Below are positions 9,019 through 64,000 of a stretch of DNA of 64,000 nucleotides, in pieces. The stretch comes from a virus. Position 1 is the first letter of the stretch. Every line of letters starts with the position of its first letter. The stretch is from positions 1 to 64,000 of IMG/VR virus record IMGVR_UViG_3300032323_002905; one strand, written 5' to 3'. The notes beneath the pieces are model-generated. The model did no database searches, was not told the DNA's origin, and saw nothing but the letters and a program-made list of their open reading frames with translations. The translations under genes and the position numbers were made by a program.

Positions 9019-10059
9019 TTATTTGTAACTATTTAATATATTAAAATTGTTAGGTAACCAATGTTCTACATTTTTAATTGTAAAACCCATTCCATCCTCA
9101 TGGTATAATTTTAAGAAATCACCTGCTCTTAATTCTGGTGCTTCTTCTAATATTAGTTCTTCTAAGAACTGTTTCTCACTATCGTCTATAATTGGTTTAG
9201 CTAGATTCATAATTTTGAAACAATTTCGTATTGAATCTTCTTCAAATACTATTCTAGAATAGATAATATGTTCCTTATATTTCTCAGCACTAATTCTAAA
9301 AATATCATCTAATGTTAATATTTCAGTTTGTAATTCAGGAAATAATTTAAATATTTTTCCTTTACCTAAACCTTTAACACCAGGTACTTTATCTGAATTA
9401 TCTCCTAATAGTGTTTTATATAAGATAAAATTTTCAGGCGGAATGCCAAACTTGCTCTTTACAGTTTTACTATCATAGAAATCTTTTTCAATCGGAGAAT
9501 AAATAATAATATTTTTATTTACTAATTGTAAAAAATCTTTATCTGAGGATACTATATAAACTTTAGAATCGTAAGTTGAAGCTAAATGAGTACTTAAATG
9601 AGCTATTAAGTCGTCTGCTTCTGCTTTATCTATAGCTACTGTTTTAACAGGTAAACATTTTAGATAATGAATTAAACGAGCAATTTGATTATACTTAGAA
9701 ATATTTTCATCTTCTAAATCATCAAATGTATCCCAATTAGTAACTCGTGTTTGATGTCTTCCTGATTTGTATTCAGGTAATAAGTTCTTCCTATTATTGG
9801 AAGAACCTATACCGTCGAATACTAGATATACAGATGTTGGTTGAATATTGTTAATCAGAAATCCTAATGATCTTAAGAATCCACCTAAACCTCCTATATG
9901 CACTCCATCTGAATTAATATAATTTAATACAGCAAAGTTTCTTAGAAATAAATTTAATCCATCTACTAGAACTACTCTAGAGTGTTTATTTGAGGTAGGT
10001 TCGTCCTTTACTTCTTGAGTTACGTTGTCAAGAAGTTTAAATAATTCATCTGTATTCAT
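9019..10059 (-). CDS. 5'-3' exonuclease / flap endonuclease (T4 RNase H or PolA N-terminal type)
   Basis: LVDGLN, VFDG, EYKSGR, EADD, SSDKDFLQL, GDNSDKVPGVKGLG (H3TH). Confidence 0.92.
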   Translation of the reverse strand: MNTDELFKLLDNVTQEVKDEPTSNKHSRVVLVDGLNLFLRNFAVLNYINSDGVHIGGLGGFLRSLGFLINNIQPTSVYLVFDGIGSSNNRKNLLPEYKSGRHQTRVTNWDTFDDLEDENISKYNQIARLIHYLKCLPVKTVAIDKAEADDLIAHLSTHLASTYDSKVYIVSSDKDFLQLVNKNIIIYSPIEKDFYDSKTVKSKFGIPPENFILYKTLLGDNSDKVPGVKGLGKGKIFKLFPELQTEILTLDDIFRISAEKYKEHIIYSRIVFEEDSIRNCFKIMNLAKPIIDDSEKQFLEELILEEAPELRAGDFLKLYHEDGMGFTIKNVEHWLPNNFNILNSYK

Positions 10060-12014: not shown

Positions 12015-12046
12015 CTAATATAATGAACGCATTATACGAGGCCAAA
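12015..12046 (-). promoter_or_regulatory. Bacteroidota-type promoter of SSB-recombinase-helicase operon
   Basis: TTTG-N20-TATATTAG. Confidence 0.6.
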
Positions 12047-12070
12047 CTAAGGCCCAAAAATTGGACCTTA
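12047..12070 (-). terminator. Imperfect hairpin, putative terminator
   Basis: CTAAGG.CCAA / TTGG.CCTTAG inverted repeat downstream of 12117..12473. Confidence 0.45.
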
Positions 12071-12116
12071 GATGATTTTGTTTGATATGTTGGGGTGATT
12101 TATTTTAGATTAAATA

Positions 12117-12473
12117 TTACTTAACTTCTTCTTCTGATGCTACTCCCCATTCTTTTTCTGTTCGATAACCCTTAGCAAATTCACTTAATGATTTTACTAA
12201 ATAAACCTGCCCATCATCTGATACCTGAGCATAATTATATCCTGTGCCATTTTCCTCTGTGTGAAGACCTTCGACACCTAAATATTGATCTAATCTATAA
12301 AGCAATTCGTTTACATTAGAAAAATTTTTAATTTTAAATAATTCAGTTAATCTACCTTGTTTATTTTTTAAAGCAAAAATTCTCATTTTTTCAGCTTCGT
12401 TAATTTGATTTTCAGTAATAATACCCGCTAATTTTTGCATGCGGATAAATTGTTCGTTTAATTGTTTTTTCAT
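12117..12473 (-). CDS. Putative internal head protein with RMQKLAGI leader
   Basis: N-terminus MKKQLNEQFIRMQKLAGIITENQINE matches 60878..61348 and the scaffold C-terminus; own late-type motif at 12494-12502. Confidence 0.75.
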   Translation of the reverse strand: MKKQLNEQFIRMQKLAGIITENQINEAEKMRIFALKNKQGRLTELFKIKNFSNVNELLYRLDQYLGVEGLHTEENGTGYNYAQVSDDGQVYLVKSLSEFAKGYRTEKEWGVASEEEVK

Positions 12474-12501
12474 GTTTAATGTTGTTTTATAATAATAAAT
12501 A

Positions 12502-12966
12502 TTACACTAAGTCTACTATTTTATAAATTTTAGTATTAAGTGTTTTTAACTCGTTATGTTGTGTTAATAAAATACTATTTTTATAATGTTGCCAATCAAT
12601 TCTAAATGATGGATCAACTACACCTCTATTTAATGATTTAATTAATTCATTAAGAGCATTAATTGTATATAATGTATTTGATTCTTTTTTGCGATGTACT
12701 AATATTGTATTTGTTGGTATCGTGTTCACGTTACCTTGGTCAATGTTATAAGTAATAACATACTCACCTGTATTTTGAACATGTAAAACAAAAATCTTGT
12801 TATACATGATATCGTATGTTTTAGAAACCTCGTTTATTAGCCCATCTAATCCCTCTAAAGCTATGAAAGTGCATAGTAACCTATTATTCACGTCGAATGT
12901 ATTAAAAATGTGTTGAAAGTCATAATTTATCGAATTATACATATCGCCGTTTTTATTTAAAGTCAT
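12502..12966 (-). CDS. Hypothetical protein adjacent to DNA polymerase
   Basis: Likely start MTLNK (AGTTATG context) overlapping the pol stop; LLCTF...TILVHRKKESNTLYTINALN. Confidence 0.75.
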   Translation of the reverse strand: MTLNKNGDMYNSINYDFQHIFNTFDVNNRLLCTFIALEGLDGLINEVSKTYDIMYNKIFVLHVQNTGEYVITYNIDQGNVNTIPTNTILVHRKKESNTLYTINALNELIKSLNRGVVDPSFRIDWQHYKNSILLTQHNELKTLNTKIYKIVDLV

Positions 12967-35893: not shown

Positions 35894-38800
35894 CTATTTA
35901 TTTTTAAGTTGTTCTTCTAAATTAATTACTTTATCATTTAGTTCTTGAATAGCAGCAATTAACAATGGTACTACCTTTTCATATTGTACTGTTAAATAAT
36001 TTTCTCCTGTTTTACTTACTATATTATTGTTCTCATCTTTAGTAACATCAAATGGAGCTGGTTTTACTGCTTCTGGTAATATTTTTTGTATATCTTGAGC
36101 TATAACTCCAACTTGTCTTTCTGTATTAGATTCAAAATAAATATCTGCTAATTCATTTTGATAATAAGTTACCGCTCTTAATGAATTAACTTTATTTAAA
36201 GCACTTTTAATTGGTTCTAATCCTTTTTTAAGTCTTTCATCTGAGTAATATGCTGTTATATTTCCTGTTGCATTTATAGAACCACTAACATCTAATGCTA
36301 CTGCTGGGGCTGTAATACCAATACCTACATTACCACCATTAACCATAGACATAACTTCATTTCCTCCACCATCAACAAATCTTAATCTATCTGTTGTACC
36401 ACCATAATATATTTGAAAAGCATTAGTGTTATTACCTAATCTTATTCCAGATCTAGATGTTGTATTGTTACCATTTGAAGCGTCTCTTTTTATATCTAAA
36501 AAAGTACCCTCTTGTGAAGCATACATTGTAGCTCCATTAGAAATAGATAATTTACTTGTTGGACTAGTAGTACCAATACCTACGTTACCTGAACCAGACA
36601 TAACCACAGTTTGACCACTTGTACTTCCTCCAGGATAAAATGCTAAAAAGGAACTAGCACCTGAGTTAGCTGCTATTGTTGGTATATTAGCTCCATAGGC
36701 TCCACCCCAAGTTAAATTATTTCCACTTGCTAAGTTAACAGAACCATTAATATCCAATTTAACCACAGGTGATGTTGTTCCAATACCTACATCACCTCCA
36801 CTAAGTATAGCTAATCTTGTTGCACCAGCAGTTCCTAATCGTAAACTAGCTACAGCTTCACCCATCATTACTAAGTTACCTCCACCACCAGCATTGTATT
36901 GTAAATATCCAGTACGAGTATTATTAGCTGTGTTATAAAAAGATATATAAGCAGCATCATTTTGTAAACGTAATAATTCCGCTGCTCCTGCTATTTGTAA
37001 TAATGAACCATCAAATGTTAGATTAGATTCTCCATTAAATGGAGTTCCAGAATCTCCTGTAGCTGTTACTACATAATTATTAACATTATTAGATATTGAG
37101 GTTGCCGCTGCTAAACCTGAAATACCTGAAGTACCTACTTGTCCAGAAGCACCACTTGCTCCTGAAGCGCCGCTAGCACCGGATAAACCTGAAATACCAG
37201 ATGTACCAACTTGTCCTGATGCACCTGATGCTCCTGAAGCACCACTAGCACCTGAAGCACCACTTGCACCTGATAATCCTGAAATACCACTTGTACCTAC
37301 TTGGCCTGAAGCACCTGATGCTCCGCTTGCCCCTGAAGCACCTGAGGCACCACTTAGTCCTGAAATACCTGAAGTACCAACCTGTCCTGAAGCGCCACTT
37401 GCGCCTGAAGCTCCTGAAGCGCCACTTGCACCTGAAGCACCTGATAATCCTGAAATACCAGATGTACCAACTTGTCCTGAAGCACCACTAGCACCTGATA
37501 GACCAGAAATACCTGATGTTCCTACTTGTCCAGAAGCACCGCTTGCGCCTGAAGCACCTGAGGCACCACTTAGTCCTGAAATACCTGAAGTACCTACTTG
37601 GCCTGATGCACCTGAAGCGCCACTTAAACCTGAAATACCACTTGTACCTACTTGACCTGAAGCTCCTGATGCTCCGCTTGCTCCTGAAAGTCCTGAGATA
37701 CCTGAAGTACCTACTTGGCCTGATGCACCACTAGCCCCTGAAGCTCCTGATGCTCCACTTGCGCCTGAAAGTCCTGAGATACCTGAAGTACCTACTTGGC
37801 CTGAAGCTCCTGAAGCACCGCTTGCACCTGAAGCTCCTGATAAACCTGAAAGTCCTGAAATACCTACTTGGCCTGATGCACCACTAGCACCTGATGCTCC
37901 TGATAAACCTGATATACCACTTAATCCTGAAATACCACTTGTTCCTACTTGGCCTGAAGCCCCACTAGCACCTGAAGCACCTGAAGCGCCACTTAAGCCT
38001 GAAATACCTGATATACCAACTTGGCCTGAAGCACCACTCGCTCCTGAGGCTCCTGATAAACCACTTATACCTGAAGTACCTACAGTACCACTTAAGCCTG
38101 AAATACCTGAAGTACCTACTTGGCCTGATGCACCACTAGCACCTGATGCTCCTGATAAACCTGATATACCTGATAAACCTGATGTTCCTGCTGCTGTTGT
38201 TGTAATAACATCACCAGTTGTAGTAACAGCTAATAACGCCGCTACAGATCCGGGAAATGCTCCTGAACCTGTGTACGCAGCTAAGTTCATCTGTCTAGAA
38301 CCTAAACTCCATGATGCTACAGAAGCATTTGATGTAGTTGAAGTACCTCTTAATATTCTGATAGTATTTTGCCAGTTATCAATCATTGAACCTGATGTCC
38401 AAGATGTACCTGGTTGTAATGTTAATTGACCGCCTTCATCTGGTCCTAATGGACCTAAATATAAATTAGATTCTGTACTTGTATTTGTAGTACCAATAGC
38501 AACTACACCATCTTTTGTTATATTAAATACACTACCTGTTGCACTACCTGAAGCAGTAACACTAATATAATTTGCTGTTTGTCCTGCTGCTCCTCTAACT
38601 TGTAAACCACCAACTGAAGATGTAATATTAATTACTTCTACAGCATGGGTAGGTACAGGTGTTAAACCATAAGCACCATTTATAAAACTTGTATAATAAG
38701 AAGCAAACTGTAATCTATTAAAAGGAGCATCAGCTCCATATGTACCACCTTGGAATGTGACGTTATTATTAGACCCACCTGAGCCTGAATTTTTTATTTG

Positions 38801-41800
38801 GAAATAAGCTGTTTGTAAATTGTCTGCCCACCCTCCAACATTAGAAGTAATTCTAAGTTGAGCTGAATCAGTAGAATTTCCTCCGGCATTACCTTCTAAT
38901 ATTAATGAACTAGCTAAAGTTTTAATATTAGGAGAAGCATTATTAGGTCCGTTTAATACTAAACTACCTGTAAGGTTTAATATACTACCATCAAATTGTA
39001 AATTAGCTTCTCCATTAAATGGAGTAGTTGAGTTTCCTGTTGCTGTTACAACATAGTTATTTACATTATTAGTAATTGCTGTTGCTGCTGCTAAACCTGA
39101 AATACCTGAAGTACCAGATAATCCACTTATACCAGATGTTCCTGATAAACCTGAGATACCTGAAGTACCACTTAAGCCTGAAATACCTGACGCACCTGAT
39201 AAACCACTTATACCAGATGTACCAACTTGTCCTGAAGCACCACTTGCGCCTGATGCTCCTGAAAGTCCTGAAATACCTGATATTCCACTTAAACCAGATA
39301 TACCTGATATACCACTAGTACCTGAAGCTCCGCTTGCTCCTGATGTACCACTTAATCCTGAAATACCTGAAGTACCACTTAAGCCTGAAATACCGCTTAA
39401 ACCTGATAAACCTAAGGTACCACTTAAACCTGATAGGCCTGAAATACCAGATAGACCTGATGAACCTGATAGACCTGATAGACCTGATTCTCCTGAAAGT
39501 CCTGAGATGCCTGATAAACCTGATATACCTGATAAACCACTTATACCTGACAAACCTGATAATCCAGAAAGTCCTGAAAGACCTGAATTACCTATAGAAC
39601 CTACTGTTGTTATAACAAATGAATAGTAAGCGCTACCTTCTGTATAATATACAACTGAATGTGATGTTGAGTCATCATTATTTAAATACAATCTAACAAT
39701 CATTCTGTTAGTTGGATCTATAGTTGTTGTAGGTAATACTATATCAACATTAGTTTCAACTGGTGTTGAAGCATTTACCCATCCAATTAAAGCATCACTA
39801 GATGTTATAGCAGGACCAATAGGAGTACCTGATGAATTAGCTAATTGTATTTCACAATAAGCATTAATTTGATCATTAGATGCTTGTTTTAAATAATTAA
39901 AATGGAATCTTTGAATACCTGCTGGTATTACCGCGAATCCTAATTGTGGAGTTATATAATCTGAAACAAGAACTCCTTGCTGATTTCCTGTTAAATTTGT
40001 TGTTAATGTTTGTTGAGAAGCTGTTGATGGAGTAGCAGCTAATACTTTGTATCCTGAAACATCTGAATTTTGACTTTCATTAAAATAATATGTTTGACCT
40101 GCTGTTATACCAGTTGCTCCACTTAAACCTGATATACCTGATAAACCAGAAAATCCTGATAATCCAGAGATACCTGAAAGACCGGATAAACCAGAGATAC
40201 CTGATAAACCTGAAATCCCTGATAAGCCTGATATACCACTTAAGCCTGATATACCTGATATGCCTGAAAGTCCTGAGATACCAGATAAGCCACTTAAACC
40301 AGATTCACCTGATAAACCTGAAATACCTGATAAGCCTGATATACCACTTAGACCTAAAAGTCCTGAAATACCAGATGTACCTGAAAGTCCTGATAGACCT
40401 GATAGACCTGAAATACCACTTAAACCTGATAGACCTGAGATACCTGATAAACCACTTAGACCTGATAAACCACTTAGACCTGAAGTAGCTGTAACTCCTA
40501 ATGTAGTTACTAAATATGAATAATGTTGTGTGCCTTGAGTATAAAAATTAACAGTTTTAGGTGAAGGTTGATTATTATTAACATATATTTTATAAACTAA
40601 TCTATCTGTTGGGTCTAATATAGCTGTTGTAGCTACAGCATTATTTTTAACTTCAACAGGTGTTGTGTTATTTGTATCCCAACCTAATTGTATAGTATCT
40701 GATGTGAATAACAAGGTTTCGACACTACCTGTAGTATATTTAGATATAGTGTAGTAAGAAGTAATATTATCATTTACAGCAGGTTTAGTAAAATAACTAT
40801 ATGAATGCCATATTCCATTTGGAATTACAGATACACCAGGAACATCATTATCTGTTATCCATCCTGAATCAACTATAGCATTTTGTTGACTCGCTGATAA
40901 ATTTACTGGGATAACTTGTTCAGATGCTGATACTGTGAATTTACTTAATTGAAAGTAAGGAGATGAACTACCTGAAGCTGAAGAATTTACAAAGAAATTT
41001 TGACCTCCTGAGTTTCCATTTTCTCCACTTAATCCTGATATACCTGAAAGTCCTGATAAACCTGATATACCTGAAATACCACTTATACCTGATAATCCTG
41101 AAAGACCAGAATCACCATTAGTCCCTGATAAACCACTTAAACCAGAATTACCTGATAAACCACTTAAACCAGAAATACCAATTCCACTTAAGCCTGAAAT
41201 ACCTGTACCACTTAAACCTGAAATACCTGAATTTCCTTCTAAACCACTTAAACCAGATAGACCTGAAACTCCAAAGCCATTTAAACCAGAAATACCTTCT
41301 AAACCTGATATACCACTTAGACCTGATAAGCCAGTTCCACTTAAACCTGATATACCAGAATTACCTGATAAACCACTTAAACCAGATGTACCAAATAAAC
41401 CAGAGATACCTTCTAAACCACTTAAACCTGAGAGACCAGATAAACCAATACCACTTATACCTGATATACCACTTAAGCCTGAAGTACCTTCTAAGCCACT
41501 TAAACCAGATATACCACTTATACCAGATATACCTGATATACCTGAAAGTCCTGAAATACCTGATTGACCAGATAAACCTGAAGTACCTATACCACTTAAT
41601 CCTGATAAACCGCTTGTTCCTATTATACCTGATATACCACTTAAGCCTGATATACCTGATAAACCTGAAATACCTTCTAAACCACTTAAACCTGAGAGAC
41701 CAGAGTCACCACTTAAACCTGAAATACCTTCTAAGCCTGAAAGACCTGAAAGTCCTGATATACCTAAAGTACCACTTAAACCAGAGATACCTGAAATACC

Positions 41801-42424
41801 TGAAGTGCCAATAGTTCCACTTAAACCTGAAATACCTGAAGTACCACTTAGTCCACTTATACCAGATATACCTAATGTTCCTGAAAGTCCTGAAATACCT
41901 GAAATACCACTTAGACCTGATATACCACTTATACCTGATAAGCCTGATAAGCCTGACAAACCTGAGCGACCACTTAAGCCTGAAATACCTGATAAACCAG
42001 ATGTACCAATTCCACTTAAGCCTGACAAACCTGAGCGACCACTTAAGCCTGAAATACCACTTGTACCTAATAAACCTGATATTCCACTTATACCTGAAAG
42101 TCCTGAAGTACTATTTCCACTTAAGCCTGAAAGTCCTGAAAGTCCTATTCCGCTTAAACCTGAAAGACCAGATAAGCCAATACCACTTAAGCCTGAAATA
42201 CCACTTAAACCAGATAATCCTGATAAACCAGATAAACCAGATTGACCATTTAAACCTGATAAACCTGATAATCCTGATAAACCAGATTGGCCATCTAAAC
42301 CTGATAAACCAGATACTCCTCCTCCACCTCCACTACCTGAAGTAGGTACTTGAAAGGAAGCTAAAGATACTTGATCTAAAAATCTTACATTGTTTCTTGG
42401 TATAGAGTTATTTATTCTGGCCAT
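35894..42424 (-). CDS. Giant collagen-like (Gly-X-Ser)n tail fibre with C-terminal peptidase S74 intramolecular chaperone
   Basis: 2176 aa, four G-X-S blocks, G.VGIGTT.P repeats, YYSDERLKK...VGVIAQD....PEAV...Y...VPLLIAAIQEL. Confidence 0.9.
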   Translation of the reverse strand: MARINNSIPRNNVRFLDQVSLASFQVPTSGSGGGGGVSGLSGLDGQSGLSGLSGLSGLNGQSGLSGLSGLSGLSGISGLSGIGLSGLSGLSGIGLSGLSGLSGNSTSGLSGISGISGLLGTSGISGLSGRSGLSGLSGIGTSGLSGISGLSGRSGLSGLSGLSGISGISGLSGISGISGLSGTLGISGISGLSGTSGISGLSGTIGTSGISGISGLSGTLGISGLSGLSGLEGISGLSGDSGLSGLSGLEGISGLSGISGLSGISGIIGTSGLSGLSGIGTSGLSGQSGISGLSGISGISGISGISGLSGLEGTSGLSGISGISGIGLSGLSGLSGLEGISGLFGTSGLSGLSGNSGISGLSGTGLSGLSGISGLEGISGLNGFGVSGLSGLSGLEGNSGISGLSGTGISGLSGIGISGLSGLSGNSGLSGLSGTNGDSGLSGLSGISGISGISGLSGLSGISGLSGENGNSGGQNFFVNSSASGSSSPYFQLSKFTVSASEQVIPVNLSASQQNAIVDSGWITDNDVPGVSVIPNGIWHSYSYFTKPAVNDNITSYYTISKYTTGSVETLLFTSDTIQLGWDTNNTTPVEVKNNAVATTAILDPTDRLVYKIYVNNNQPSPKTVNFYTQGTQHYSYLVTTLGVTATSGLSGLSGLSGLSGISGLSGLSGISGLSGLSGLSGTSGISGLLGLSGISGLSGISGLSGESGLSGLSGISGLSGISGISGLSGISGLSGISGLSGISGLSGLSGISGLSGFSGLSGISGLSGATGITAGQTYYFNESQNSDVSGYKVLAATPSTASQQTLTTNLTGNQQGVLVSDYITPQLGFAVIPAGIQRFHFNYLKQASNDQINAYCEIQLANSSGTPIGPAITSSDALIGWVNASTPVETNVDIVLPTTTIDPTNRMIVRLYLNNDDSTSHSVVYYTEGSAYYSFVITTVGSIGNSGLSGLSGLSGLSGISGLSGISGLSGISGLSGESGLSGLSGSSGLSGISGLSGLSGTLGLSGLSGISGLSGTSGISGLSGTSGASGASGTSGISGISGLSGISGISGLSGASGASGASGQVGTSGISGLSGASGISGLSGTSGISGLSGTSGISGLSGTSGISGLAAATAITNNVNNYVVTATGNSTTPFNGEANLQFDGSILNLTGSLVLNGPNNASPNIKTLASSLILEGNAGGNSTDSAQLRITSNVGGWADNLQTAYFQIKNSGSGGSNNNVTFQGGTYGADAPFNRLQFASYYTSFINGAYGLTPVPTHAVEVINITSSVGGLQVRGAAGQTANYISVTASGSATGSVFNITKDGVVAIGTTNTSTESNLYLGPLGPDEGGQLTLQPGTSWTSGSMIDNWQNTIRILRGTSTTSNASVASWSLGSRQMNLAAYTGSGAFPGSVAALLAVTTTGDVITTTAAGTSGLSGISGLSGASGASGASGQVGTSGISGLSGTVGTSGISGLSGASGASGASGQVGISGISGLSGASGASGASGASGQVGTSGISGLSGISGLSGASGASGASGQVGISGLSGLSGASGASGASGASGQVGTSGISGLSGASGASGASGASGASGQVGTSGISGLSGASGASGASGQVGTSGISGLSGASGASGQVGTSGISGLSGASGASGASGASGQVGTSGISGLSGASGASGQVGTSGISGLSGASGASGASGASGASGASGQVGTSGISGLSGASGASGASGASGASGQVGTSGISGLSGASGASGASGASGASGASGQVGTSGISGLSGASGASGASGASGQVGTSGISGLAAATSISNNVNNYVVTATGDSGTPFNGESNLTFDGSLLQIAGAAELLRLQNDAAYISFYNTANNTRTGYLQYNAGGGGNLVMMGEAVASLRLGTAGATRLAILSGGDVGIGTTSPVVKLDINGSVNLASGNNLTWGGAYGANIPTIAANSGASSFLAFYPGGSTSGQTVVMSGSGNVGIGTTSPTSKLSISNGATMYASQEGTFLDIKRDASNGNNTTSRSGIRLGNNTNAFQIYYGGTTDRLRFVDGGGNEVMSMVNGGNVGIGITAPAVALDVSGSINATGNITAYYSDERLKKGLEPIKSALNKVNSLRAVTYYQNELADIYFESNTERQVGVIAQDIQKILPEAVKPAPFDVTKDENNNIVSKTGENYLTVQYEKVVPLLIAAIQELNDKVINLEEQLKNK
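37110..38190 (-). repeat. Coding repeat (GAS)n-GQV-GTS-GIS-GLS higher-order units
   Basis: 9-bp periodic array with recurring GQVGTSGISGLS; boundaries approximate. Confidence 0.85.
39090..39590 (-). repeat. 9-bp periodic G-X-S coding repeat
   Basis: Degenerate 9-mer array; boundaries approximate. Confidence 0.85.
40115..40485 (-). repeat. 9-bp periodic G-X-S coding repeat
   Basis: Degenerate 9-mer array; boundaries approximate. Confidence 0.85.
41010..42315 (-). repeat. 9-bp periodic G-X-S coding repeat with occasional GI/GT dipeptide interruptions
   Basis: Degenerate 9-mer array; boundaries approximate. Confidence 0.85.
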
Positions 42425-46499: not shown

Positions 46500-48176
46500 T
46501 TAGATAGTGTTTAATCCTTGGATGTAGATCTTACCATAAAATTCTGGTCTTAACATTTTCTTAGCGTAACGAGTCAATAGACCTTTACGTGGTGTAAATG
46601 TATCTGGGTCGTACACAAGTGGAGTCATAATTAATGGAACATATGGAGCAAATACAGCACCAGCTTCTAAGAATTGTGAACCTCTGTAACCTAATAACAT
46701 GATGTTTTCAGTCATGTAAGGGTTTTTGTAAACTGTGTAACGGCCATTTAATTGACCTGCTTTTTGTACACCGAAAGCGTATTCCATTTGAGCAGCATCA
46801 CCATTGTTAGTAGAAGCAAATCCTGGGATTGATTCTAATACTGTAGCTACAGTTGGAGATGTAACAATAAAGTTAGCACCACCTCTTAAAGTTAATTGGT
46901 GAATTTTGTTGCTTAATTTTTGGATTTTAGTTCCTAAAGTTTGGAACCATTGGCCTTGTGTGTTGTAGAACGCTGAACCACCAGTTGAGAAAGTACCTGT
47001 ACCTGGATTGTAAACGTTGTTGTTGATTGTTGACCAATATTCAGTACCTGCTGCTGCGTCTTCGATCAACATATCTAAGATTTCAAGGTCAATTTCCATT
47101 GAAATGTACTCAGACATGATGTTTGTTACTTCAGCTTCAGCATCGATATTTTGGTAAGCAGCTAAATCTTGTGAGAATTCAGGTGTCCATACTGCTTTCA
47201 ATTTCTTGGTTTTAGCAGTGATGGCTTGTGATTGCATTTTCACGTTGATCTCAGGGATAACGATAGTAGTGTTTGATGCCGCGTTTGGAACTGCGAATGA
47301 AGACGAATCTTCAAAATCACCTACATTATACGGACTCATTTGAGTAGCTTTGTTATACTCAATTGTATAAGCACCTGCTGGAGCGATTGTAGCTGTTGAA
47401 GCACTTACAAAGAATGTAATTGTATTGTTAGTGTAATCAAATGTAGTAAATTGTTGTAAGTTGTTAGCAGCTGTAATTGCTGAACCTGACAAGATAATGA
47501 AACCTCTAACAGCATCCATATCAAAGTTAGGGATGTTTGTAGAAGCACTAACTAAAGTAATTGCTTTGATTTGACCTGCAGCAACTGAAGCTGAGTAATC
47601 TGAATCAAAGTTAGTTGTAGCTAATGTACCTGAAACAATAAGTGAACCAGTTTGGATTGTAATAGCTGATGATGAGAATTGGTTGGTAGAGTAAGTAAAA
47701 CGACCTGTTCCGTACAAACCACCTGCTGGAGCTGGAGTAGCAAACGGGAATTCACCTGTTGCGTTTCTGTTACCATACAATGAACCACCTACTGAAAATG
47801 GATCTTTAGCTGTTCCGTATTGGAAATCTAAGAAGAACACAAGACCTGAAGGCATTGACATTGGCTGAACTGAAACAAATTCTTTTGCTGCAATTTGAGC
47901 AAATACTTTACGTACTAAAGGTAAAGCGATACCAGCCCAGTTTTCTGATTGACCAACAGAGAATGAACCTGCTGATGAACCACCACCTGTATCTGATTGT
48001 TCCATAACTAATTGCTTAGCTTGGTTTTCTAATAATAAAGACATGTTGTTTGCCTCTACATTTGTTAAGCCTTCTAATAGACCCGTTTTGTTCCATTTAG
48101 AAGACAATTTAGCTGCATCGCTTTGGAGTGATTTCCAAGGATTAGCTGATTCTAATAATGATTGAATTGTACTCAT
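46500..48176 (-). CDS. gp23: Major capsid protein (T4 gp23-like)
   Basis: KW...GLLEG, LLENQ, LPLVR, VQPM..PSGL.F, AKTKKLKA.WT.E..QDL.A, EID.EI, FAPYVPL, F.PR.G..TRY. Confidence 0.95.
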   Translation of the reverse strand: MSTIQSLLESANPWKSLQSDAAKLSSKWNKTGLLEGLTNVEANNMSLLLENQAKQLVMEQSDTGGGSSAGSFSVGQSENWAGIALPLVRKVFAQIAAKEFVSVQPMSMPSGLVFFLDFQYGTAKDPFSVGGSLYGNRNATGEFPFATPAPAGGLYGTGRFTYSTNQFSSSAITIQTGSLIVSGTLATTNFDSDYSASVAAGQIKAITLVSASTNIPNFDMDAVRGFIILSGSAITAANNLQQFTTFDYTNNTITFFVSASTATIAPAGAYTIEYNKATQMSPYNVGDFEDSSSFAVPNAASNTTIVIPEINVKMQSQAITAKTKKLKAVWTPEFSQDLAAYQNIDAEAEVTNIMSEYISMEIDLEILDMLIEDAAAGTEYWSTINNNVYNPGTGTFSTGGSAFYNTQGQWFQTLGTKIQKLSNKIHQLTLRGGANFIVTSPTVATVLESIPGFASTNNGDAAQMEYAFGVQKAGQLNGRYTVYKNPYMTENIMLLGYRGSQFLEAGAVFAPYVPLIMTPLVYDPDTFTPRKGLLTRYAKKMLRPEFYGKIYIQGLNTI

Positions 48177-48201: not shown

Positions 48202-49272
48202 TTATTTAATAATTCCTGCTATTTTTTGCATTCTTGTGAATGTGTCATTAACTTCTACAATAGATGTTTTTGCTGTTGGCATAATACCTGTTGTTTTAGA
48301 TGCTAAACTAGTTTTTAATGATTCGTTAACATGTGATTTAGAAGTTTCTTTTAAACCTTCTGATAATGTTTCGAATACTAATTTAGTTTCTTTTACTGTT
48401 GATGCTTTATCAAATGCATTTAAAACCTTTACTTTTTGTGATTCGGTTAAGTTTTTAGCTTTGAAAATTTTGTTAGTGTAAAGTAATTTTGCATTTAACA
48501 AATTAACTTCATTGATGTCAGTTCTCATAGTAGCAATAGTTGACATAGCTTCTTCTAACTCTTTTTTAAGTTTAGTTATTTCTTCTTTGTCTTTTTTGTC
48601 TTCTTTGTCACCTTTTTTCTTAGCTTCATCTAATTCGATTTCAGCTAAAATTTCATCAATTGAAATTTCTTCTTCTTCACTTTCCATTTCTTCGCCTTCT
48701 TCTTCACCTTCCATGCCTTCACCAGCTTCTAATTCACCAGCTTCAACCATGTCTTTAATTACGTCCTCAATAAATGATTTTAATTCTTCTTCAGTCATGT
48801 CTTCGATGTTGATTTCTTCTTCAGTTTCAACTTCTTCTTCACCTTCAGCTTCATTAAGATCTTTTTTGTCTTCGTCTTCTTTAGCCTCATTCATGTCTTC
48901 ATCTTTTGATTCTTCCATGTCTGCTTCTAACTCAGCTAATAATTCATCAAGATTAAGTTCATCTAATTCTTCTTCAGCTACATTACCATGAGCTGTTGGA
49001 CCTTTAGGGTCATTAATTAAACCTTCTTCTTCTTTGACTTCTTTGTAGCCCATTAAGTTTTCTTGTTCTTTAGAATACATTTCTTCCATATCTTCCATTT
49101 CTGCTTCTTCCATATCCATTTCTTCCATTTCTGCAAGTTTAGCTGATAGCATAGATTTTAATTGTGGAGTAAAATGTTCTTCAAGAGCAGCTTTTGCGCT
49201 TGCTATTGCTGTTTCTTTAACAACTTTAGCATCTTCGATTGCTTCTTTAAGCAAATCTCTGTTTTTACTCAT
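48202..49272 (-). CDS. Prohead core / scaffolding protein
   Basis: Highly acidic coiled coil between protease and MCP; many L/I-x-E sites; ends FTRMQKIAGIIK; start set to MSKNRDLLKEA. Confidence 0.8.
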   Translation of the reverse strand: MSKNRDLLKEAIEDAKVVKETAIASAKAALEEHFTPQLKSMLSAKLAEMEEMDMEEAEMEDMEEMYSKEQENLMGYKEVKEEEGLINDPKGPTAHGNVAEEELDELNLDELLAELEADMEESKDEDMNEAKEDEDKKDLNEAEGEEEVETEEEINIEDMTEEELKSFIEDVIKDMVEAGELEAGEGMEGEEEGEEMESEEEEISIDEILAEIELDEAKKKGDKEDKKDKEEITKLKKELEEAMSTIATMRTDINEVNLLNAKLLYTNKIFKAKNLTESQKVKVLNAFDKASTVKETKLVFETLSEGLKETSKSHVNESLKTSLASKTTGIMPTAKTSIVEVNDTFTRMQKIAGIIK

Positions 49273-49473: not shown

Positions 49474-50079
49474 TTAAAATAAAGGACATGACCCGTTAGC
49501 ACATAAAATATCAGTAATAATTGAATTAATTTTACCATATTGATTTGTACTAGGAATATATGATTCATTTAAGTTAGTTGGTTGCATCCATGAACCTGGG
49601 TTAGAAGGTGTTGAAACAAAATCCCAACATAGTAATTCAAAGTCTTCTTGTACTTCCATTACATTACCTCTTTGTTCTAATGAACCCATTCCTCTTGATG
49701 ATACACCTACTGTGATGCCACTTTCAATTAATGCTTTTAAAATGTTGCCTGATGGAGTAGGTAAAATTTCAATTAAACCCATTACATTATCTCCATCCCA
49801 CCAGCATTTTTTAATATTATGTGAAACATTTTTTAAGTTGATAACTGAAGAATCCGGATGATCTAATTCGCCTAATGCTCTGTTTTCACGAACAGATTCC
49901 ATATAGCGATTCATTTCACGTTCCCATAATTCTTTAGCGTAATATCTACCATTACCGTTTTTTACTTCGGCGGTAGCTAATACACCTTCTACTAATATGT
50001 TACCTCCAGGATTAGTTCCTTCAGTTAACCTAACAGCTTTAGGAGAAAATAATTGTGTTTCAATTAATACTTGTCTCAT
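49474..50079 (-). CDS. gp21: Prohead core protease (T4 gp21-like)
   Basis: KNGNGRYY, ALGELDHP, VSH, TPSG.I, GVSSRGMGS, DFVSTPS. Confidence 0.95.
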   Translation of the reverse strand: MRQVLIETQLFSPKAVRLTEGTNPGGNILVEGVLATAEVKNGNGRYYAKELWEREMNRYMESVRENRALGELDHPDSSVINLKNVSHNIKKCWWDGDNVMGLIEILPTPSGNILKALIESGITVGVSSRGMGSLEQRGNVMEVQEDFELLCWDFVSTPSNPGSWMQPTNLNESYIPSTNQYGKINSIITDILCANGSCPLF

Positions 50080-50915: not shown

Positions 50916-51179
50916 TTATGTGTAAAATAAAACGTTAGCACTAGCAGCTGCTAATGAAGCACTAGTTACGAATATAGGATAAGTTGCTCCTTCAAGAAAT
51001 CTTAATGTAGCTGGTGAACCAGATATACATAATTCTACTCCATTTGCGTCTTTAAGACCTGTAAAAACAGCATATGATCCTGCTGTGGTTGCTGCTACTG
51101 TGAATCCAGCAAAAGAACCAGTCACTGATTGACCTTGTCTTATAGATACTACTGTTGGGTTTGCGGGTATATTTGCCAT
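50916..51179 (-). CDS. Small virion protein, paralog B (possible decoration protein)
   Basis: 87 aa, closely similar to 51191..51454. Confidence 0.75.
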   Translation of the reverse strand: MANIPANPTVVSIRQGQSVTGSFAGFTVAATTAGSYAVFTGLKDANGVELCISGSPATLRFLEGATYPIFVTSASLAAASANVLFYT

Positions 51180-51190
51180 TATTATAATTT

Positions 51191-51454
51191 TTATGTAAAG
51201 AAAACGACGTTAGCACTTGTAGCATCTAATGAGGCACTAGTAACAAATATTGGATATACAACACCTTCTTTAAGATATAAAGCTGCTGGTGATCCTGAAA
51301 CTACTAACTCTACTCCATTAGCATCTTTAAGACTTGTAAAGTGAATATAATTATTTACAGTATTTGAACATCCAACAAAACCAGCAAATGAGCCTGTTAT
51401 TGTTTGTCCTGCTTGTCTTGATACAGCGGTTGCATTAGCTGGTATATTTGCCAT
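51191..51454 (-). CDS. Small virion protein, paralog A (possible decoration protein)
   Basis: 87 aa; MANIPAN, TGSFAGF, LKDANGVEL, YPIFVTSASL shared with neighbour. Confidence 0.75.
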   Translation of the reverse strand: MANIPANATAVSRQAGQTITGSFAGFVGCSNTVNNYIHFTSLKDANGVELVVSGSPAALYLKEGVVYPIFVTSASLDATSANVVFFT

Positions 51455-51455
51455 A

Positions 51456-51989
51456 TTAGTTTTTAAATAAGCTTATTAAGTCGTTTAAATAATCGTTTGC
51501 TAAATCAGTACCATATAACACACTAAAATTAGGTTTATTTTTATAATAATCTAATGTTCTTTGTTTTGCGTTTTGTAATAATGGTAATAATTCGTTTAAT
51601 TTTTGTTCTAAAGTATCAAATCCTTCTAATCTAGATTTGATAAATGTTTTTAATTCTGGTTTATCTATGTTTAAAGAATCAATATAAGCGTCAACATCTA
51701 ATTGTGCTTCGTTTACATTCTCTTTCCACATTTGTTTAACTATAATTCCTTTTGCCTGTTTATTCAGTTTTTTTTGATTAACAGGTTTGTAACCTAGTTT
51801 ATAATAATAATTATTTGTTGTACCTTTAGAATTAGTATTTTTTTTATAAGCAGCATCTGTTCCTGCTTTTGTTGCTGTTTGTGGCCCTTCACCTGGACTA
51901 AAAGCTCCAGCTGATGCTCCACCTCCTGTACCTGATTCTTCAGATATTTTTTTTAATGTATCTTTAATAATACTTTTTAACTTATCCAT
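51456..51989 (-). CDS. Hypothetical head-associated protein
   Basis: MDKLKSIIKDTLKKISEES leader, VNEA site. Confidence 0.7.
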   Translation of the reverse strand: MDKLKSIIKDTLKKISEESGTGGGASAGAFSPGEGPQTATKAGTDAAYKKNTNSKGTTNNYYYKLGYKPVNQKKLNKQAKGIIVKQMWKENVNEAQLDVDAYIDSLNIDKPELKTFIKSRLEGFDTLEQKLNELLPLLQNAKQRTLDYYKNKPNFSVLYGTDLANDYLNDLISLFKN

Positions 51990-54768: not shown

Positions 54769-54777
54769 TATAAATAT
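54769..54777 (-). promoter_or_regulatory. Late-type motif ATATTTATA
   Basis: Overlaps terminase stop, 19 nt upstream of portal ATG. Confidence 0.55.
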
Positions 54778-56740: not shown

Positions 56741-57017
56741 TGTATTTAGTTTTATATAAATCGGCTTTATGTTTTAAACCTGATAATTTAATTTTATCTT
56801 CTGCTACTTGTTTTTTATAAACAGTAGCAACTGAATCTAATTGGGTGATTTTAATTTTAGTAGAGTCAATATTTGCTTGTAATGAATCTATTTTATTATT
56901 TAAAGCTTCATTTTCTTTACCCAAACGGAAATTAGGATTAATGTTAAGAATATTTACAATTAATAACACTAATCCTACGTATCCTAGAAACTTTATAATT
57001 TCTTTATACCACATCAA
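56667..57017 (-). CDS. i-spanin (Rz)-like protein
   Basis: N-terminal TM FLGYVGLVLLIVNILNI followed by coiled coil. Confidence 0.55.
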   Translation of the reverse strand: MMWYKEIIKFLGYVGLVLLIVNILNINPNFRLGKENEALNNKIDSLQANIDSTKIKITQLDSVATVYKKQVAEDKIKLSGLKHKADLYKTKYNEEHNRITNLSNDALVSEFTNAFD

Positions 57018-60750: not shown

Positions 60751-60782
60751 TTAATATAATTAATTTTTATTTAAAGGCCAAA
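60751..60782 (-). promoter_or_regulatory. Bacteroidota-type promoter, probably leaderless
   Basis: TTTG-N20-TATATTAA ending 5 nt before ATG 60745. Confidence 0.6.
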
Positions 60783-60787
60783 CTAAG

Positions 60788-60817
60788 GTGGCCCACCTTT
60801 TTTTAGGGTGAGCCACT
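60788..60817 (-). terminator. Hairpin, putative terminator of the cargo gene block
   Basis: GTGGC.CACC...GGTG.GCCAC inverted repeat. Confidence 0.6.
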
Positions 60818-60877: not shown

Positions 60878-61348
60878 TTAGATTTTTTTAAATGCTTCAC
60901 CTTCTCTATATTGAGGGTAATATGTTTTTCTACCATCTACATCTGAAATTTCCCATGCTGGAATATTATTAGGTTCTACATTTCCATTATACATAAAATT
61001 TCCTTCTAATTTAGTTGCTTTTACAATTTTACCTGGGATGAATTTTTGTTTCATTCTATCAAATACTTCAACTTTATCACCTGGTTTTACAGTTGGCCCT
61101 GATGCTTGTAACATATCAAAATATGCTTCACTATCTTCTAAGTATTCTTGATGTTCTTCATTACCAAATTCTTCGTCAGGATCAACTTCATTTTTTACCA
61201 TATCCATAACTTTTTCTCTATTCCATCCTGGGTTAGCAGACATCATACTTTGGTAAAATGAGTTTGATTCTTTATTGATTTGGTTTTCAGTAATAATACC
61301 CGCTAATTTTTGCATGCGAGCTAATTGTTCGTTTAATATTGGTTTCAT
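60878..61348 (-). CDS. Putative internal head protein with RMQKLAGI leader
   Basis: MKPILNEQLARMQKLAGIITENQINKE; C-terminal VKPGDKVEV SH3/KOW-like segment. Confidence 0.75.
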   Translation of the reverse strand: MKPILNEQLARMQKLAGIITENQINKESNSFYQSMMSANPGWNREKVMDMVKNEVDPDEEFGNEEHQEYLEDSEAYFDMLQASGPTVKPGDKVEVFDRMKQKFIPGKIVKATKLEGNFMYNGNVEPNNIPAWEISDVDGRKTYYPQYREGEAFKKI

Positions 61349-62881: not shown

Positions 62882-63524
62882 TTTTCATTTTTTTAAATGG
62901 GGCATATCCTGAACCATATGGTGCTGATCTGCCAGATTGTGGATCTGATGTTTCTTGTGTTAAATCTCTATAGTTTTGAGATGGAGGAAATGTTCCCATC
63001 TTTTTTTTAGCTTGTTCCTTAGTTTTATAAGGTCCAAATTCTTGTCTAATACCTGGAGCAAATGGATTATCTTGAATATAATAGTATTTGTCTCCTCTTT
63101 TTTCAATAGCTCTATATCTACTTTGACCTCCAAAACCATTTTTTTCATTTACATCTTTAAATTCTTTTAATTTATTCAAGCGTTCTGTTTTCTTTTTAGA
63201 TGCTTCTTTTTTAGCTGTGATGTATTCTAATCCTTTTTTTAAGCGTGCTTTTACTTCAGGATCTTTTGCTTTACCATAAGCGGCTCTAACACGTTGATGA
63301 ATTAAATTAATAATTTGTGATTGTCTTTTATGTGGTTTTGATTGAAATGATGATTTAGATAAAGTATCTTTTATATCTTGAACAGTTTTAAATTTTATAC
63401 TAACAGTATCATTTGGATTTTCATCAGTATATAAACGACGACCTGATCCTTTAGGTTTTTTACCTGTACCTACTTTAGGATCACCTTCAGTTATTTCTTT
63501 TAATATATCAACTAACTTAATCAT
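62874..63524 (-). CDS. Putative internal head protein
   Basis: MIKLVDILKEITE leader; basic; GTGKKPKGSGRRLYTDENP. Confidence 0.65.
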   Translation of the reverse strand: MIKLVDILKEITEGDPKVGTGKKPKGSGRRLYTDENPNDTVSIKFKTVQDIKDTLSKSSFQSKPHKRQSQIINLIHQRVRAAYGKAKDPEVKARLKKGLEYITAKKEASKKKTERLNKLKEFKDVNEKNGFGGQSRYRAIEKRGDKYYYIQDNPFAPGIRQEFGPYKTKEQAKKKMGTFPPSQNYRDLTQETSDPQSGRSAPYGSGYAPFKKMKND

Positions 63525-63892
63525 TATGATATAGTCCAGGTTTTAACATCACGTGCTTTTTCTTTTAATTTAAAAGTAACTACACCACGAATTGATTTAA
63601 TATCTTTTTCTACTTTAGTTACAATATTAGCTGTATCATTTAATCCTTTAGGGAATGGTGATGGATCAATTTTAATATCTAAATAAGCGTATTCATATTT
63701 TGATGATGGATTACCTGATTGATATTCTTTATTATTAACAATAGTAACACCTAAAACAGCTCTAACGTCAGATAAAATGTATTTCATTTTAGCAACTTGA
63801 GGATTGATAACTAATACACCACCAATGGCTAATACCTTTTTTGATGATGCGTATTCTTCTTTAATAAGTTGTTTTAGTTCTGATTTTTTCAT
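63524..63892 (-). CDS. Putative internal head protein
   Basis: MKKSELKQLIKEE leader; ferredoxin-like alpha/beta pattern. Confidence 0.65.
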   Translation of the reverse strand: MKKSELKQLIKEEYASSKKVLAIGGVLVINPQVAKMKYILSDVRAVLGVTIVNNKEYQSGNPSSKYEYAYLDIKIDPSPFPKGLNDTANIVTKVEKDIKSIRGVVTFKLKEKARDVKTWTIS

Positions 63893-63894
63893 AA

Positions 63895-64000
63895 TTATTT
63901 TAAATCATCTATTAAATTCTGCATCTCTTCATCTGCAGGTCCACGATAACTAAAAGTATATGTTCCTTTTAAGCTTTTATCATCATAATAATTATTATTA
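63895..64000 (-). CDS. 3' end of a gene entering from outside the window
   Basis: Open frame ...NYYDDKSLKGTYTFSYRGPADEEMQNLIDDLK-stop. Confidence 0.5.
   Translation of the reverse strand, partial: NNNYYDDKSLKGTYTFSYRGPADEEMQNLIDDLK

What the first reader, a model, noticed from the sequence alone, without database searches (positions are those of the whole stretch)
12047..12502. Mobile RMQKLAGI leader cassette copied from the scaffold C-terminus: a capsid-loading system
Seen: two otherwise unrelated genes 49 kb apart begin with LNEQxxRMQKLAGIITENQIN. Their DNA is identical for 35 bp (12409-12443 = 61284-61318) plus 15 bp (12448-12462 = 61323-61337). The scaffold ends VNDTFTRMQKIAGIIK. The 12117 gene has its own late motif and a downstream hairpin inside the replication block, like a moron. 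Established: scaffold C-termini bind coat protein in phages such as P22, and T4 internal proteins use an N-terminal capsid-targeting sequence removed by gp21 at L/I-x-E. Inference: a recombining address-label module lets new genes be loaded into the head and released by the protease (LNE, ITE, INE sites).
Basis: partly seen in the sequence, partly recalled or inferred. Interest (0 to 1): 0.82.

Follow-up and report, generated by a model that had tools for sequence, protein, structure and literature searches.

The report
Scaffold-tail peptide reused as capsid tag
In this T4-like water phage, three unrelated small proteins start with a short peptide that copies the conserved tail of the head-scaffold protein and ends at a head-protease cutting site, so it is most likely a clip-off address tag that loads extra proteins into the capsid, although no packaging or cutting has been measured.

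Summary
Two unrelated genes in the window (12117-12473 and 60878-61348, both on the minus strand) begin with MK..LNEQ..RMQKLAGIITENQIN. A third gene, just outside the window, has the same start. The 35-bp and 15-bp DNA identities are exact. The scaffold-position protein (48202-49272) ends in RMQKIAGIIK.

The window comes from a T4-like myovirus related to Flavobacterium phage immuto. It has an S77 prohead protease that is 36% identical to T4 gp21.

RMQKLAGII(K) is the near-invariant C-terminus of the scaffold in more than 100 IMG/VR contigs. The same peptide, always followed by x-E, opens at least 96 distinct small proteins, which fall into 68 unrelated body clusters. A leader profile finds 1,498 protein clusters in 1.84 billion. 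The leader DNA pattern finds nothing in 596 Gb of prokaryotic genomes.

Leaders within one genome share 91.5% of synonymous codons, against 53.5% between genomes, so they exchange as a DNA module. They are not a recent copy of the scaffold tail. In a sister clade, tail and leaders change together (QK to QQ).

The best reading is a capsid-targeting propeptide that mimics the scaffold tail. It is analogous to the T4 internal-protein CTS, but with a different sequence and mostly acidic cargo. The binding partner, the cleavage and the fate of the cargo are untested.

The scan has noted this same family before in other genomes.

The parts
12117..12473 (-). Leader-bearing gene 1 (118 aa). Codons 1-26 (12396-12473) form the leader MKKQLNE|QFIRMQKLAGIITE|NQINE|. 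The body is an acidic ORFan.
   Evidence: Leader profile E 1.6e-16. The body has only 3 close homologues. No Pfam or PHROG hit.
12492..12502 (-). Late-type promoter-like motif ATATTTATTAT, 19 nt upstream of the ATG of gene 1.
   Evidence: 9 sites in the window, all on the minus strand, 1.9 expected. The other 8 precede the tail tube, sheath, fibre, portal and other genes.
12047..12071 (-). Hairpin with an 11-bp stem just downstream of gene 1, followed by TTAGTTTGGCC (a second recurring intergenic motif) and then the SSB gene.
   Evidence: MFE -15.6 kcal/mol, z -3.19.
60878..61348 (-). Leader-bearing gene 2 (156 aa). Leader codons lie at 61268-61348. It is the last gene of a gene string that runs down from late-type motifs at G000 68765 and 65250.
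   Evidence: Leader profile E 5.6e-16. Homologues with the same leader in L193 and L211. Motif positions.
60788..60816 (-). Hairpin downstream of gene 2, again followed by TTAGTTTGGCC.
   Evidence: centroid stem; z -2.08 for the 131-nt stretch.
48202..49272 (-). Scaffold-position protein (gp22 slot). It is acidic, helical and rich in [LI]xE sites. The tail, coded at 48205-48249, is IVE|VNDTFTRMQKIAGIIK. The longest ORF starts at a GTG at 49302; the likely true start is the ATG at 49272 (MSKNRDLL, as in immuto).
   Evidence: Synteny between the S77 protease and the MCP. 53% identity of the C-terminal 112 aa to the immuto protein in the same slot. 16 [LI]xE sites. Tail hit by the leader profile at E 6.7e-7. 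Only weak profile similarity to T4 gp22.
49474..50079 (-). Prohead core serine protease (Peptidase_S77, T4 gp21 family), the presumed enzyme that cuts after [LI]-x-E.
   Evidence: Pfam PF03420 at 4.1e-32. PHROG 207. 36% identity to T4 gp21, E 8e-25, with GELDHP and GVSSRGMGS aligned to T4 GELNHP and GVSSRGLGS.
46500..48176 (-). Major capsid protein (gp23-like), one candidate binding partner of the tail and leader.
   Evidence: PHROG 138 at 1.6e-69. 56% identity to the immuto MCP.
63524..64000 (-). Tandem genes carrying a second shared N-terminal peptide, MKKSELKQLI(K/R)EE..ILKE. They occupy 63524-63892 and 63895-64170, with a third at 64173-64463 beyond the window end. This may be a second leader family.
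   Evidence: N-terminal all-against-all scores of 57-59.

Best explanation
The roughly 22-26-residue N-terminal peptide M-K-x-x-L-N-E / x-F-x-R-M-Q-K-L-A-G-I-I-(T/K)-E / N-Q-I-N-E is most likely a removable capsid-targeting propeptide.

Proposed mechanism:

1. Its core (hydrophobic-x-R-M-Q-K-L-A-G-I-I, an amphipathic helix) imitates the conserved C-terminal tail of the phage's own scaffold protein.
2. During prohead assembly the tagged protein therefore occupies the same docking site as the scaffold tail. That site is probably on the inner face or N-terminal arm of the major capsid protein, or else within the scaffold core.
3. The protein is enclosed in the prohead.
4. The S77 (gp21-type) prohead protease, which cuts after Glu in [LI]-x-E, then clips the tag at I-(T/K)-E, and probably also at L-N-E and I-N-E. 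The scaffold tail is freed in the same way at its upstream [IV]-x-E site.

The tag-coding DNA behaves as an exchangeable module, so new genes acquire it.

Shown here: the sequences, their conservation, their modularity and the presence of the protease.

Inferred: binding, encapsidation, cleavage, and whether the mostly acidic cargo stays in the head and is ejected into the host.
For: 1. The tag is real and specific. There are 3 leaders plus the scaffold tail in the 89-kb contig.

2. The tail is a conserved functional element. 108 IMG/VR ORFs end in RMQKLAGII(K). Of 87 distinct tails, 86 have [LIVM]xE within 13 aa upstream and 87 have a hydrophobic residue at -3. Distant scaffolds keep the tail: immuto RWQKLAGIIK, Mel-JY01 RMKKLAGIVK, megaphage LR756508 RMQKLADIS.

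3. One tag carries many cargos. 96 non-redundant leader ORFs were found, and 92 bodies fall into 68 BLAST clusters. A leader profile finds 1,498 clusters (50% identity) at E<=1e-3, almost all starting at residue 1. Complete 148-175-kb genomes carry about 3-5 tagged genes each, and immuto carries 2.

4. There is a cleavage-type site. All 17 leaders found by the scan that did not require Glu have II-x-E. T4 Alt is cut at ITE-6, and T4 IPs lose their CTS to gp21 (PMC5694885; PMC8442874).

5. The enzyme is present. The S77 protease is 36% identical to gp21, and the GELDHP and GVSSRG motifs align with the T4 sequence.

6. Timing fits. Late-type promoter motifs precede gene 1 and the third leader gene, and stand at the head of the gene string that ends with gene 2.

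7. The tag is modular. Synonymous codon identity is 97/106 within genomes against 53.5% between genomes. Homology between leader genes stops at about codon 26. Immuto has an unrelated gene in the slot of the 118-aa gene.

8. Tail and leader are coupled. In genome G006 the tail is RMQQLAGIVK and all 4 leaders are RLQQLAGIITE. No QK leader was found in the three QQ-tail genomes examined (0 of 6), whereas genomes with QK tails have mostly QK leaders.

9. The tag also works in other positions. It occurs at both ends of 874-969-aa proteins and internally, as expected of a binding tag rather than an N-terminal signal.
Against: - There is no experimental evidence of any kind. No paper holds the motif, and no virion proteome exists for immuto or its relatives.
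- The cargo bodies are acidic: 80 of 92 have pI below 6, with a median of 4.5. T4 IPs are basic. Acidic proteins may be expelled or degraded rather than kept beside DNA.
- The 118-aa protein has a high [LI]xE density (4.2 per 100 aa against a genome median of 1.2), so it might be digested.
- The scaffold assignment rests on synteny and composition. BLASTP against T4 gp22 is not significant, and hhalign gives only E 0.0047 at 7.5% probability.
- In several genomes the scaffold tail departs from the consensus while the leaders keep it (G001-G003), so strict covariation is absent.
- In the scaffold the motif has a free C-terminus; in the leaders it does not.
- The AF2 models were too poor to say anything about the bodies.
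- The docking partner is unknown even in T4.
Confidence: 0.65

Rival explanations
1. The tagged proteins are loaded into the prohead as the main reading says. However, they act as auxiliary scaffold or core components, or as space fillers. They are digested and expelled with the scaffold rather than delivered into the host.
For: - The bodies are acidic, like the scaffold here and like the acidic tail of T4 gp67 (median pI 4.5; T4 gp67 sequence).
- The 118-aa protein ranks fifth in the genome for [LI]xE density.
- Internal-motif proteins with long acidic N-terminal parts exist.
- T4 degrades gp22, gp67 and gp68 and expels the peptides (PMC9958956).
Against: - Assembly factors are normally conserved. 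These bodies fall into 68 clusters out of 92, and most are ORFans.
- Tagged genes differ between close relatives and occupy variable slots.
- Some phages with the same scaffold tail have no tagged genes by pattern search (Mel-JY01), so the tagged proteins are dispensable for assembly.
Confidence: 0.15
2. The leader is a competitor or regulator of the scaffold-capsid contact. Proteins or released peptides carrying the scaffold tail would tune assembly, capsid size or timing, as SaPI1 CpmB does with the 80alpha scaffold tail. It would not be a cargo address.
For: - The core motif is the same as the scaffold tail.
- Protease-type sites bracket the core, so a free peptide of 14-15 residues could be released.
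Against: - A regulator would not need hundreds of unrelated bodies.
- The genes are in the phage's own genome, several per genome, not in a satellite.
- Large proteins carry the tag at both ends, which looks like anchoring.
Confidence: 0.07
3. The peptide is a protease-removable inhibitory propeptide. It would be a timing switch that activates the proteins late in infection, without targeting them to the capsid.
For: The x-E site follows the motif in every leader ORF examined, and the genes have late-type promoters.
Against: - In T4, gp21 is built into the prohead core and becomes active only once the prohead is complete (PMC9958956; PMC9546572), so substrates would have to be inside.
- This reading does not explain why the propeptide equals the scaffold tail, or why the two change together.
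Confidence: 0.05
4. The shared sequence is selected at the nucleic-acid level, as a recombination hot spot, a translational operator or an RNA structure. The peptide similarity would then be a by-product.
For: 35 bp are identical between two genes, and synonymous identity within genomes is 91.5%.
Against: - Between genomes the peptide is conserved while synonymous sites are only 53.5% identical.
- The same peptide occurs at C-termini and internally.
- Upstream DNA is unrelated between the copies.
Confidence: 0.03

Closest known systems
Phage T4 capsid targeting sequence (CTS, MKTYQEFIAE) of internal proteins IPI-III and Alt (Mullaney & Black 1996, as cited in PMC8442874, PMC3012670 and PMC5694885)
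   Same: - A short N-terminal peptide shared by otherwise unrelated proteins.
- Several such proteins per genome.
- An S77 gp21-type protease in a gp20-gp21-gp22-gp23-like head module.
- The tag ends at [LI]-x-E (T4 Alt: ITE-6).
- The cargo set varies between relatives.
   Different: - There is no sequence similarity to the T4 CTS.
- The tag is about twice as long and carries two or three candidate cut sites.
- It copies the scaffold's C-terminal tail, which I did not find described for T4.
- The cargo is mostly acidic, not basic.
- The tag also occurs internally and at C-termini.
- Nothing has been tested experimentally.
Herpesvirus scaffold/protease C-terminal tail (my own knowledge, not checked here)
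   Same: - A short C-terminal scaffold peptide docks on the major capsid protein.
- It is shared with a second protein (the protease precursor) so that this protein is co-packaged.
- It is cut off by an assemblin-type protease to release the scaffold. [quoted passage not shown]
   Different: - In herpesviruses the sharing comes from nested in-frame genes and concerns one protein.
- Here an independent N-terminal module sits on hundreds of unrelated proteins.
SaPI1 CpmB mimicry of the 80alpha scaffold C-terminus (my own knowledge, not checked here)
   Same: A non-scaffold protein carries the scaffold's capsid-binding tail and so enters procapsids.
   Different: - CpmB is a satellite-encoded alternative scaffold that changes capsid size.
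- Its tail is C-terminal.
- It is one protein, not a family of cargos.
Encapsulin cargo-loading peptides, and engineered cargo fusions to the P22 scaffold C-terminus (my own knowledge, not checked here)
   Same: A short portable peptide that binds the inside of an HK97-fold shell is enough to load diverse cargo.
   Different: - Those peptides are usually C-terminal and are not removed by a protease.
- Encapsulins have no scaffold to imitate, and the P22 system is man-made.

Membership tests
T4-type capsid-targeting-sequence (CTS) cargo system | A gp21-family (Peptidase S77) prohead protease encoded in the head module | tested here: met
   PF03420 at 4.1e-32. 36% identity to T4 gp21, E 8e-25, with the GELDHP and GVSSRG motifs aligned to T4.
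T4-type capsid-targeting-sequence (CTS) cargo system | A short N-terminal peptide shared by several otherwise unrelated proteins of one phage | tested here: met
   3 genes in the 89-kb contig with unrelated bodies. About 3-5 per complete related genome.
T4-type capsid-targeting-sequence (CTS) cargo system | The peptide ends at a gp21-type site ([LI]-x-E, cut after Glu) | tested here: met
   II-(T/K)-E in all 3 genes here. 17 of 17 leaders have it when E was not required by the search. This shows the motif only; cleavage itself was not tested.
T4-type capsid-targeting-sequence (CTS) cargo system | Sequence similarity to the T4 CTS MKTYQEFIAE | tested here: not met
   The leader MKKQLNEQFIRMQKLAGIITE has no similarity to the CTS quoted in PMC8442874. 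It is therefore an analogue, not a homologue.
T4-type capsid-targeting-sequence (CTS) cargo system | Tagged proteins are found processed inside proheads and virions, and the tag is sufficient to load a foreign protein | not testable with these tools
   No proteomics or fusion data exist for this lineage.
T4-type capsid-targeting-sequence (CTS) cargo system | Small basic DNA-associated cargo (T4 IPI-III) | tested here: not met
   80 of 92 bodies have pI below 6. The three bodies in this genome have pI 4.4, 4.7 and 5.2.
T4 gp22-family scaffold (for the protein carrying the tail) | Gene lies between the prohead protease and the major capsid protein; acidic, helical and rich in protease sites | tested here: met
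   Gene order 49474-50079 / 48202-49272 / 46500-48176. 22% Glu and 16 [LI]xE sites.
T4 gp22-family scaffold (for the protein carrying the tail) | Detectable sequence homology to T4 gp22 | tested here: inconclusive
   BLASTP E 5.6. Profile against sequence gives E 0.0047 at 7.5% probability, limited to the N-L-T-E-S-Q-K segment.

The most novel reading that the evidence does not exclude
The conserved scaffold tail is a general, position-independent 'capsid address' in a large uncultured branch of T4-like aquatic phages. Any protein that acquires it, by recombination at a DNA module of roughly 78 nt, is loaded into the prohead and freed by the prohead protease.

On this reading, more than a thousand unrelated, mostly acidic protein families are injected proteins, for example anti-defence factors.

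The same logic may explain the T4 CTS, whose QEFIAE resembles the EQLIAE at the N-terminus of T4 gp22. That would identify what a CTS binds.
Probability: 0.35. Interest if true: 0.8.

Novelty: new variant of a known kind. Interest (0 to 1): 0.6.

Why it matters
T4's capsid targeting sequence has been used for decades to load foreign proteins, but the T4 reviews and papers I read give no sequence logic for why it works. A tag that visibly copies the scaffold's own conserved tail gives a concrete hypothesis that can be tested: cargo competes for the scaffold's docking site.

It also marks about 1,500 otherwise unannotated protein clusters in uncultured aquatic phages as candidate virion-internal, possibly injected, proteins. 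That is a ready-made list in which to look for anti-defence or host-takeover functions.

Finally, it offers a natural, protease-removable loading tag for engineering. A cultured phage, Flavobacterium phage immuto, carries two tagged genes, so the idea can be tested at the bench.

Tried and rejected
- **Structure prediction.** AF2 models of the 118-aa and 156-aa proteins, built on shallow alignments, gave pLDDT 43.6 and 54.6. They were too poor for fold searches, so none were run. The ESM Atlas holds the 118-aa protein with pLDDT 0.38, and its neighbours carry no information.
- **Family libraries.** Pfam and PHROGs gave nothing for the window's leader proteins or the scaffold. Across 89 leader proteins there were only 5 single-member Pfam hits and 2 PHROG hits.
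- **Literature.** No paper contains MQKLAGI. The papers that mention immuto concern DNA modification, polymerases or ecology, and none has virion proteomics.
- **Homology of the scaffold to T4 gp22.** It is not significant by BLASTP and weak by hhalign, so I do not claim it.
- **Recent copying of the leader from the scaffold tail.** Rejected on codon usage: 4 of 7 synonymous codons match, which is the between-genome background.
- **Strict residue-by-residue covariation of tail and leaders within single genomes.** Not seen in G000-G005. One suggestive case exists in G002 (AFGK in both), and there is a clade-level QK/QQ pattern.
- **Leaders in Mel-JY01 and megaphage LR756508.** None found by pattern search.
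- **A canonical intrinsic terminator after gene 1.** The simple scan finds none. A hairpin without a clear U-run does exist.
- **Chance or low complexity as an explanation.** Rejected.

Full report
**What the window is.** The 64-kb window is the first 64 kb of an 89,452-bp viral contig. It has 30.7% G+C, and the genes I annotated and all long ORFs lie on the minus strand. CheckV rates the contig 55% complete.

The window encodes a T4-type head module. In coordinate order on the minus strand it runs:

| Gene | Coordinates |
|---|---|
| Large terminase | 54777-56354 |
| Portal | 52872-54749 |
| Several small genes | between portal and protease |
| Peptidase_S77 prohead protease | 49474-50079 |
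| Acidic scaffold-position protein | 48202-49272 |
| gp23-like major capsid protein | 46500-48176 |

The closest match among cultured phages is Flavobacterium phage vB_FspM_immuto, at about 72% nucleotide and 56% protein identity in the MCP. The protease is 36% identical to T4 gp21 (E 8e-25), and its GELDHP and GVSSRGMGS motifs align with T4 GELNHP and GVSSRGLGS.

**The observation.** Both quoted genes exist and begin as described.

- The 35-bp identity is exact and unique, with 0 matches in 100 shuffles. The 15-bp identity is exact too.
- The scaffold ends ...IVEVNDTFTRMQKIAGIIK.
- A third gene with the same start, MKPTLNEQLARMQKLAGIIKENQ (293 aa), lies outside the window at contig position 67866-68747.
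- A profile of the leader finds exactly these three N-termini (E 1e-16 to 1e-14) and the scaffold tail (E 6.7e-7) in the contig.
- Homology between the leader genes is confined to about the first 26 codons. The upstream DNA and the bodies are unrelated.

**The setting of the 118-aa gene.** It sits between the DNA polymerase region and the SSB and RecA-like genes.

- Nineteen nucleotides before its ATG is ATATTTATTAT. This differs by one base from ATATTTATAAT, which occurs 8 further times in the window. Every occurrence is on the coding strand and in front of a gene, including the tail tube, sheath, fibre and portal genes (9 sites against 1.9 expected).
- The third leader gene has the exact motif.
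- The 156-aa gene is the last of a tightly packed gene string that starts at such motifs.
- Each of the two window genes is followed by a stable hairpin and then TTAGTTTGGCC.
- In immuto the same slot holds an unrelated gene.
- The body of the 118-aa protein has only three close homologues among 5.8 billion clusters. All other hits match the leader only.

**How widespread it is.**

So did a second, leader-specific pattern.
- Pooled, the loci hold 108 ORFs that end in RMQKLAGII(K), typically 300-480 aa. They also hold 109 ORFs (96 distinct) that carry the motif at residues 6-15, and 18 with it further inside the ORF.
- The leader pattern has no match in 596 Gb of prokaryotic genomes.
- A leader profile run against 1.84 billion representative proteins finds 1,498 at E<=1e-3 and 181 at E<=1e-10. 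In nearly all of the top hits the match starts at residue 1.
- Among isolated phages, the related scaffold tail was found only in immuto (RWQKLAGIIK) and Microcystis phage Mel-JY01 (RMKKLAGIVK). An uncultured megaphage assembly, LR756508, also has it (RMQKLADIS).
- T4 gp22 ends ...SVYAKVASRF and Syn9 gp22 ends ...YVDALKMWSK. The motif therefore characterises a largely uncultured branch.

**Anatomy shared by tail and leader.**

- 86 of 87 distinct scaffold tails have a [LIVM]-x-E within 13 residues upstream of the motif, and all 87 have a hydrophobic residue at -3.
- 89 of 96 leaders have the hydrophobic residue at -3, and 71 of 96 have the upstream site.
- Every leader has x-E right after II. 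This includes all 17 found by the scan that did not demand Glu.

The scaffold tails mostly stop at II or IIK. Both kinds of protein would therefore release much the same peptide of roughly 15 residues.

T4-type prohead proteases cut after Glu. T4 Alt is cut at ITE-6 and LTE-619. T4 IPs lose their 10-residue CTS, and gp22 is degraded (PMC5694885; PMC8442874; PMC9958956).

**Cargo.**

- 92 bodies fall into 68 BLAST clusters, and almost none has a Pfam or PHROG family.
- They are short (median 134 aa) and acidic (80 of 92 below pI 6). This differs from T4's basic internal proteins.
- Complete genomes of 148-175 kb carry about 3-5 tagged genes. This is close to T4's four (IPI-III and Alt).
- Some proteins of 874-969 aa carry the tag at both ends.

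**Modularity.** In the leader core, 97 of 106 comparable synonymous codons are identical between leaders of the same genome, against 53.5% between genomes. In this genome the three leaders share the rare codons CGC, GCG and GGT. The scaffold tail uses AGA, GCA and GGA. Leaders are therefore homogenised with one another, or spread to new genes within a genome. They were not recently copied from the scaffold gene. Because the tail occurs in phages where no leader genes were found, the tail is probably the older element.

**Coupling of tail and leader.**

- In a sister group whose scaffolds end RMQQLAGI(V/I)K, the complete genome G006 has four leaders, all RLQQLAGIITE. G007 and G009 have MQRIAG leaders. 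None of the six is QK.
- Genomes with QK tails have mostly QK leaders.
- In G002 an unusual tail (RMRELAFGKK) is matched by one leader with MQKLAFGK.

This is covariation at clade level with few independent events. It is suggestive, not proof. In G001-G003 the tails drift while most leaders keep the consensus.

**Interpretation.** The simplest account is a capsid-targeting propeptide that works by imitating the scaffold tail and is removed by the S77 protease. The T4 literature establishes the principle: diverse proteins that share only a CTS are built into the scaffolding core, and the tag is cut off (PMC3012670). It does not say what the CTS binds.

The alternatives are scored in the rivals section of this report. 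They are: loaded but degraded core components; competitors of the scaffold; a pure activation switch; and a nucleic-acid element.

The weak points are these:

- There are no experimental data at all.
- The cargo is acidic.
- The scaffold is assigned by synteny rather than by significant homology.
- The structure models failed.

**Earlier notes of this scan.** A look-up shows that the same tail and leader family was already reported from other genomes (e1-5765097, e1-5989877, e1-5698144, e1-5750166, e1-5750153), with the same reading. I re-derived the main points independently on this window and on IMG/VR data. I took the QQ-clade lead from those notes and tested it.

**Verdict.**

- It is a new variant of a known kind, namely CTS-type cargo loading that here works through scaffold-tail mimicry.

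Noticed in passing
window 63524-63892, 63895-64000 (runs on to 64170), and contig 64173-64463: Three tandem small genes share a different N-terminal peptide, MKKSELKQLI(K/R)EE..ILKE, which ends in an L-K-E site. Looser look-alikes open the genes at 57004-57840, 62225-62881 and 62874-63524, and contig genes at 73098 and 73663. This may be a second leader family. In genome G004 a similar stretch (ELKQIIKEEIQKILSE) directly precedes an RMQKLAGI motif.
   Followed up: partly
window 12492, 20098, 24115, 26168, 30028, 35300, 45535, 52851, 54767 (all on the minus strand): ATATTTATWAT occurs 9 times, always on the coding strand and 18-27 nt before start codons where I measured the spacing, including those of the tail tube, sheath, fibre and portal genes. 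It is a likely late promoter element of this phage lineage.
   Followed up: partly
window about 12038-12046, about 60779-60787 and other intergenic regions (upstream of the genes at 539, 2130, 3635, 12953, 58445 and 59432): A second recurring intergenic motif, (T)AGTTTGGC(C/T), is often preceded by a hairpin. It stands in front of replication-type and other non-structural genes. It is a candidate early or middle promoter with an upstream terminator.
   Followed up: no
L124 (T4) 9118-9927, gp22 N-terminus: The T4 CTS MKTYQEFIAE (PMC8442874) resembles the N-terminus of T4 gp22, MLKEQLIAEA: QEFIAE against EQLIAE, both at the extreme N-terminus. Scaffold mimicry may therefore also underlie the classical CTS. 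I made no statistical test.
   Followed up: partly
window 51982-52836: The 284-aa protein just after the portal is conserved in immuto and Mel-JY01. It has the highest [LI]xE density in the contig (5.3 per 100 aa against a median of 1.2). It is probably a prohead core protein that the protease degrades.
   Followed up: partly
window 50916-51179 and 51191-51454: Two tandem paralogous 87-aa genes (MANIPAN...) lie between the portal and the protease. Their function is unknown.
   Followed up: no
L001 25626-26867 (immuto26A_204): The immuto protein in the scaffold position is annotated 'DNA polymerase phi-like protein' in GenBank. This is almost certainly a mis-annotation caused by its acidic low-complexity region.
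   Followed up: partly
P0023, P0032, P0018 (metagenomic proteins of 874-1005 aa): These large proteins carry the tag at the N-terminus and again near the C-terminus (...LNEQFLRMQKLAGLITESQYQARKK). The tag therefore does not have to be N-terminal.
   Followed up: partly
window 35894-42424: A 2,176-aa ORF lies among the structural genes. I did not examine it.
   Followed up: no
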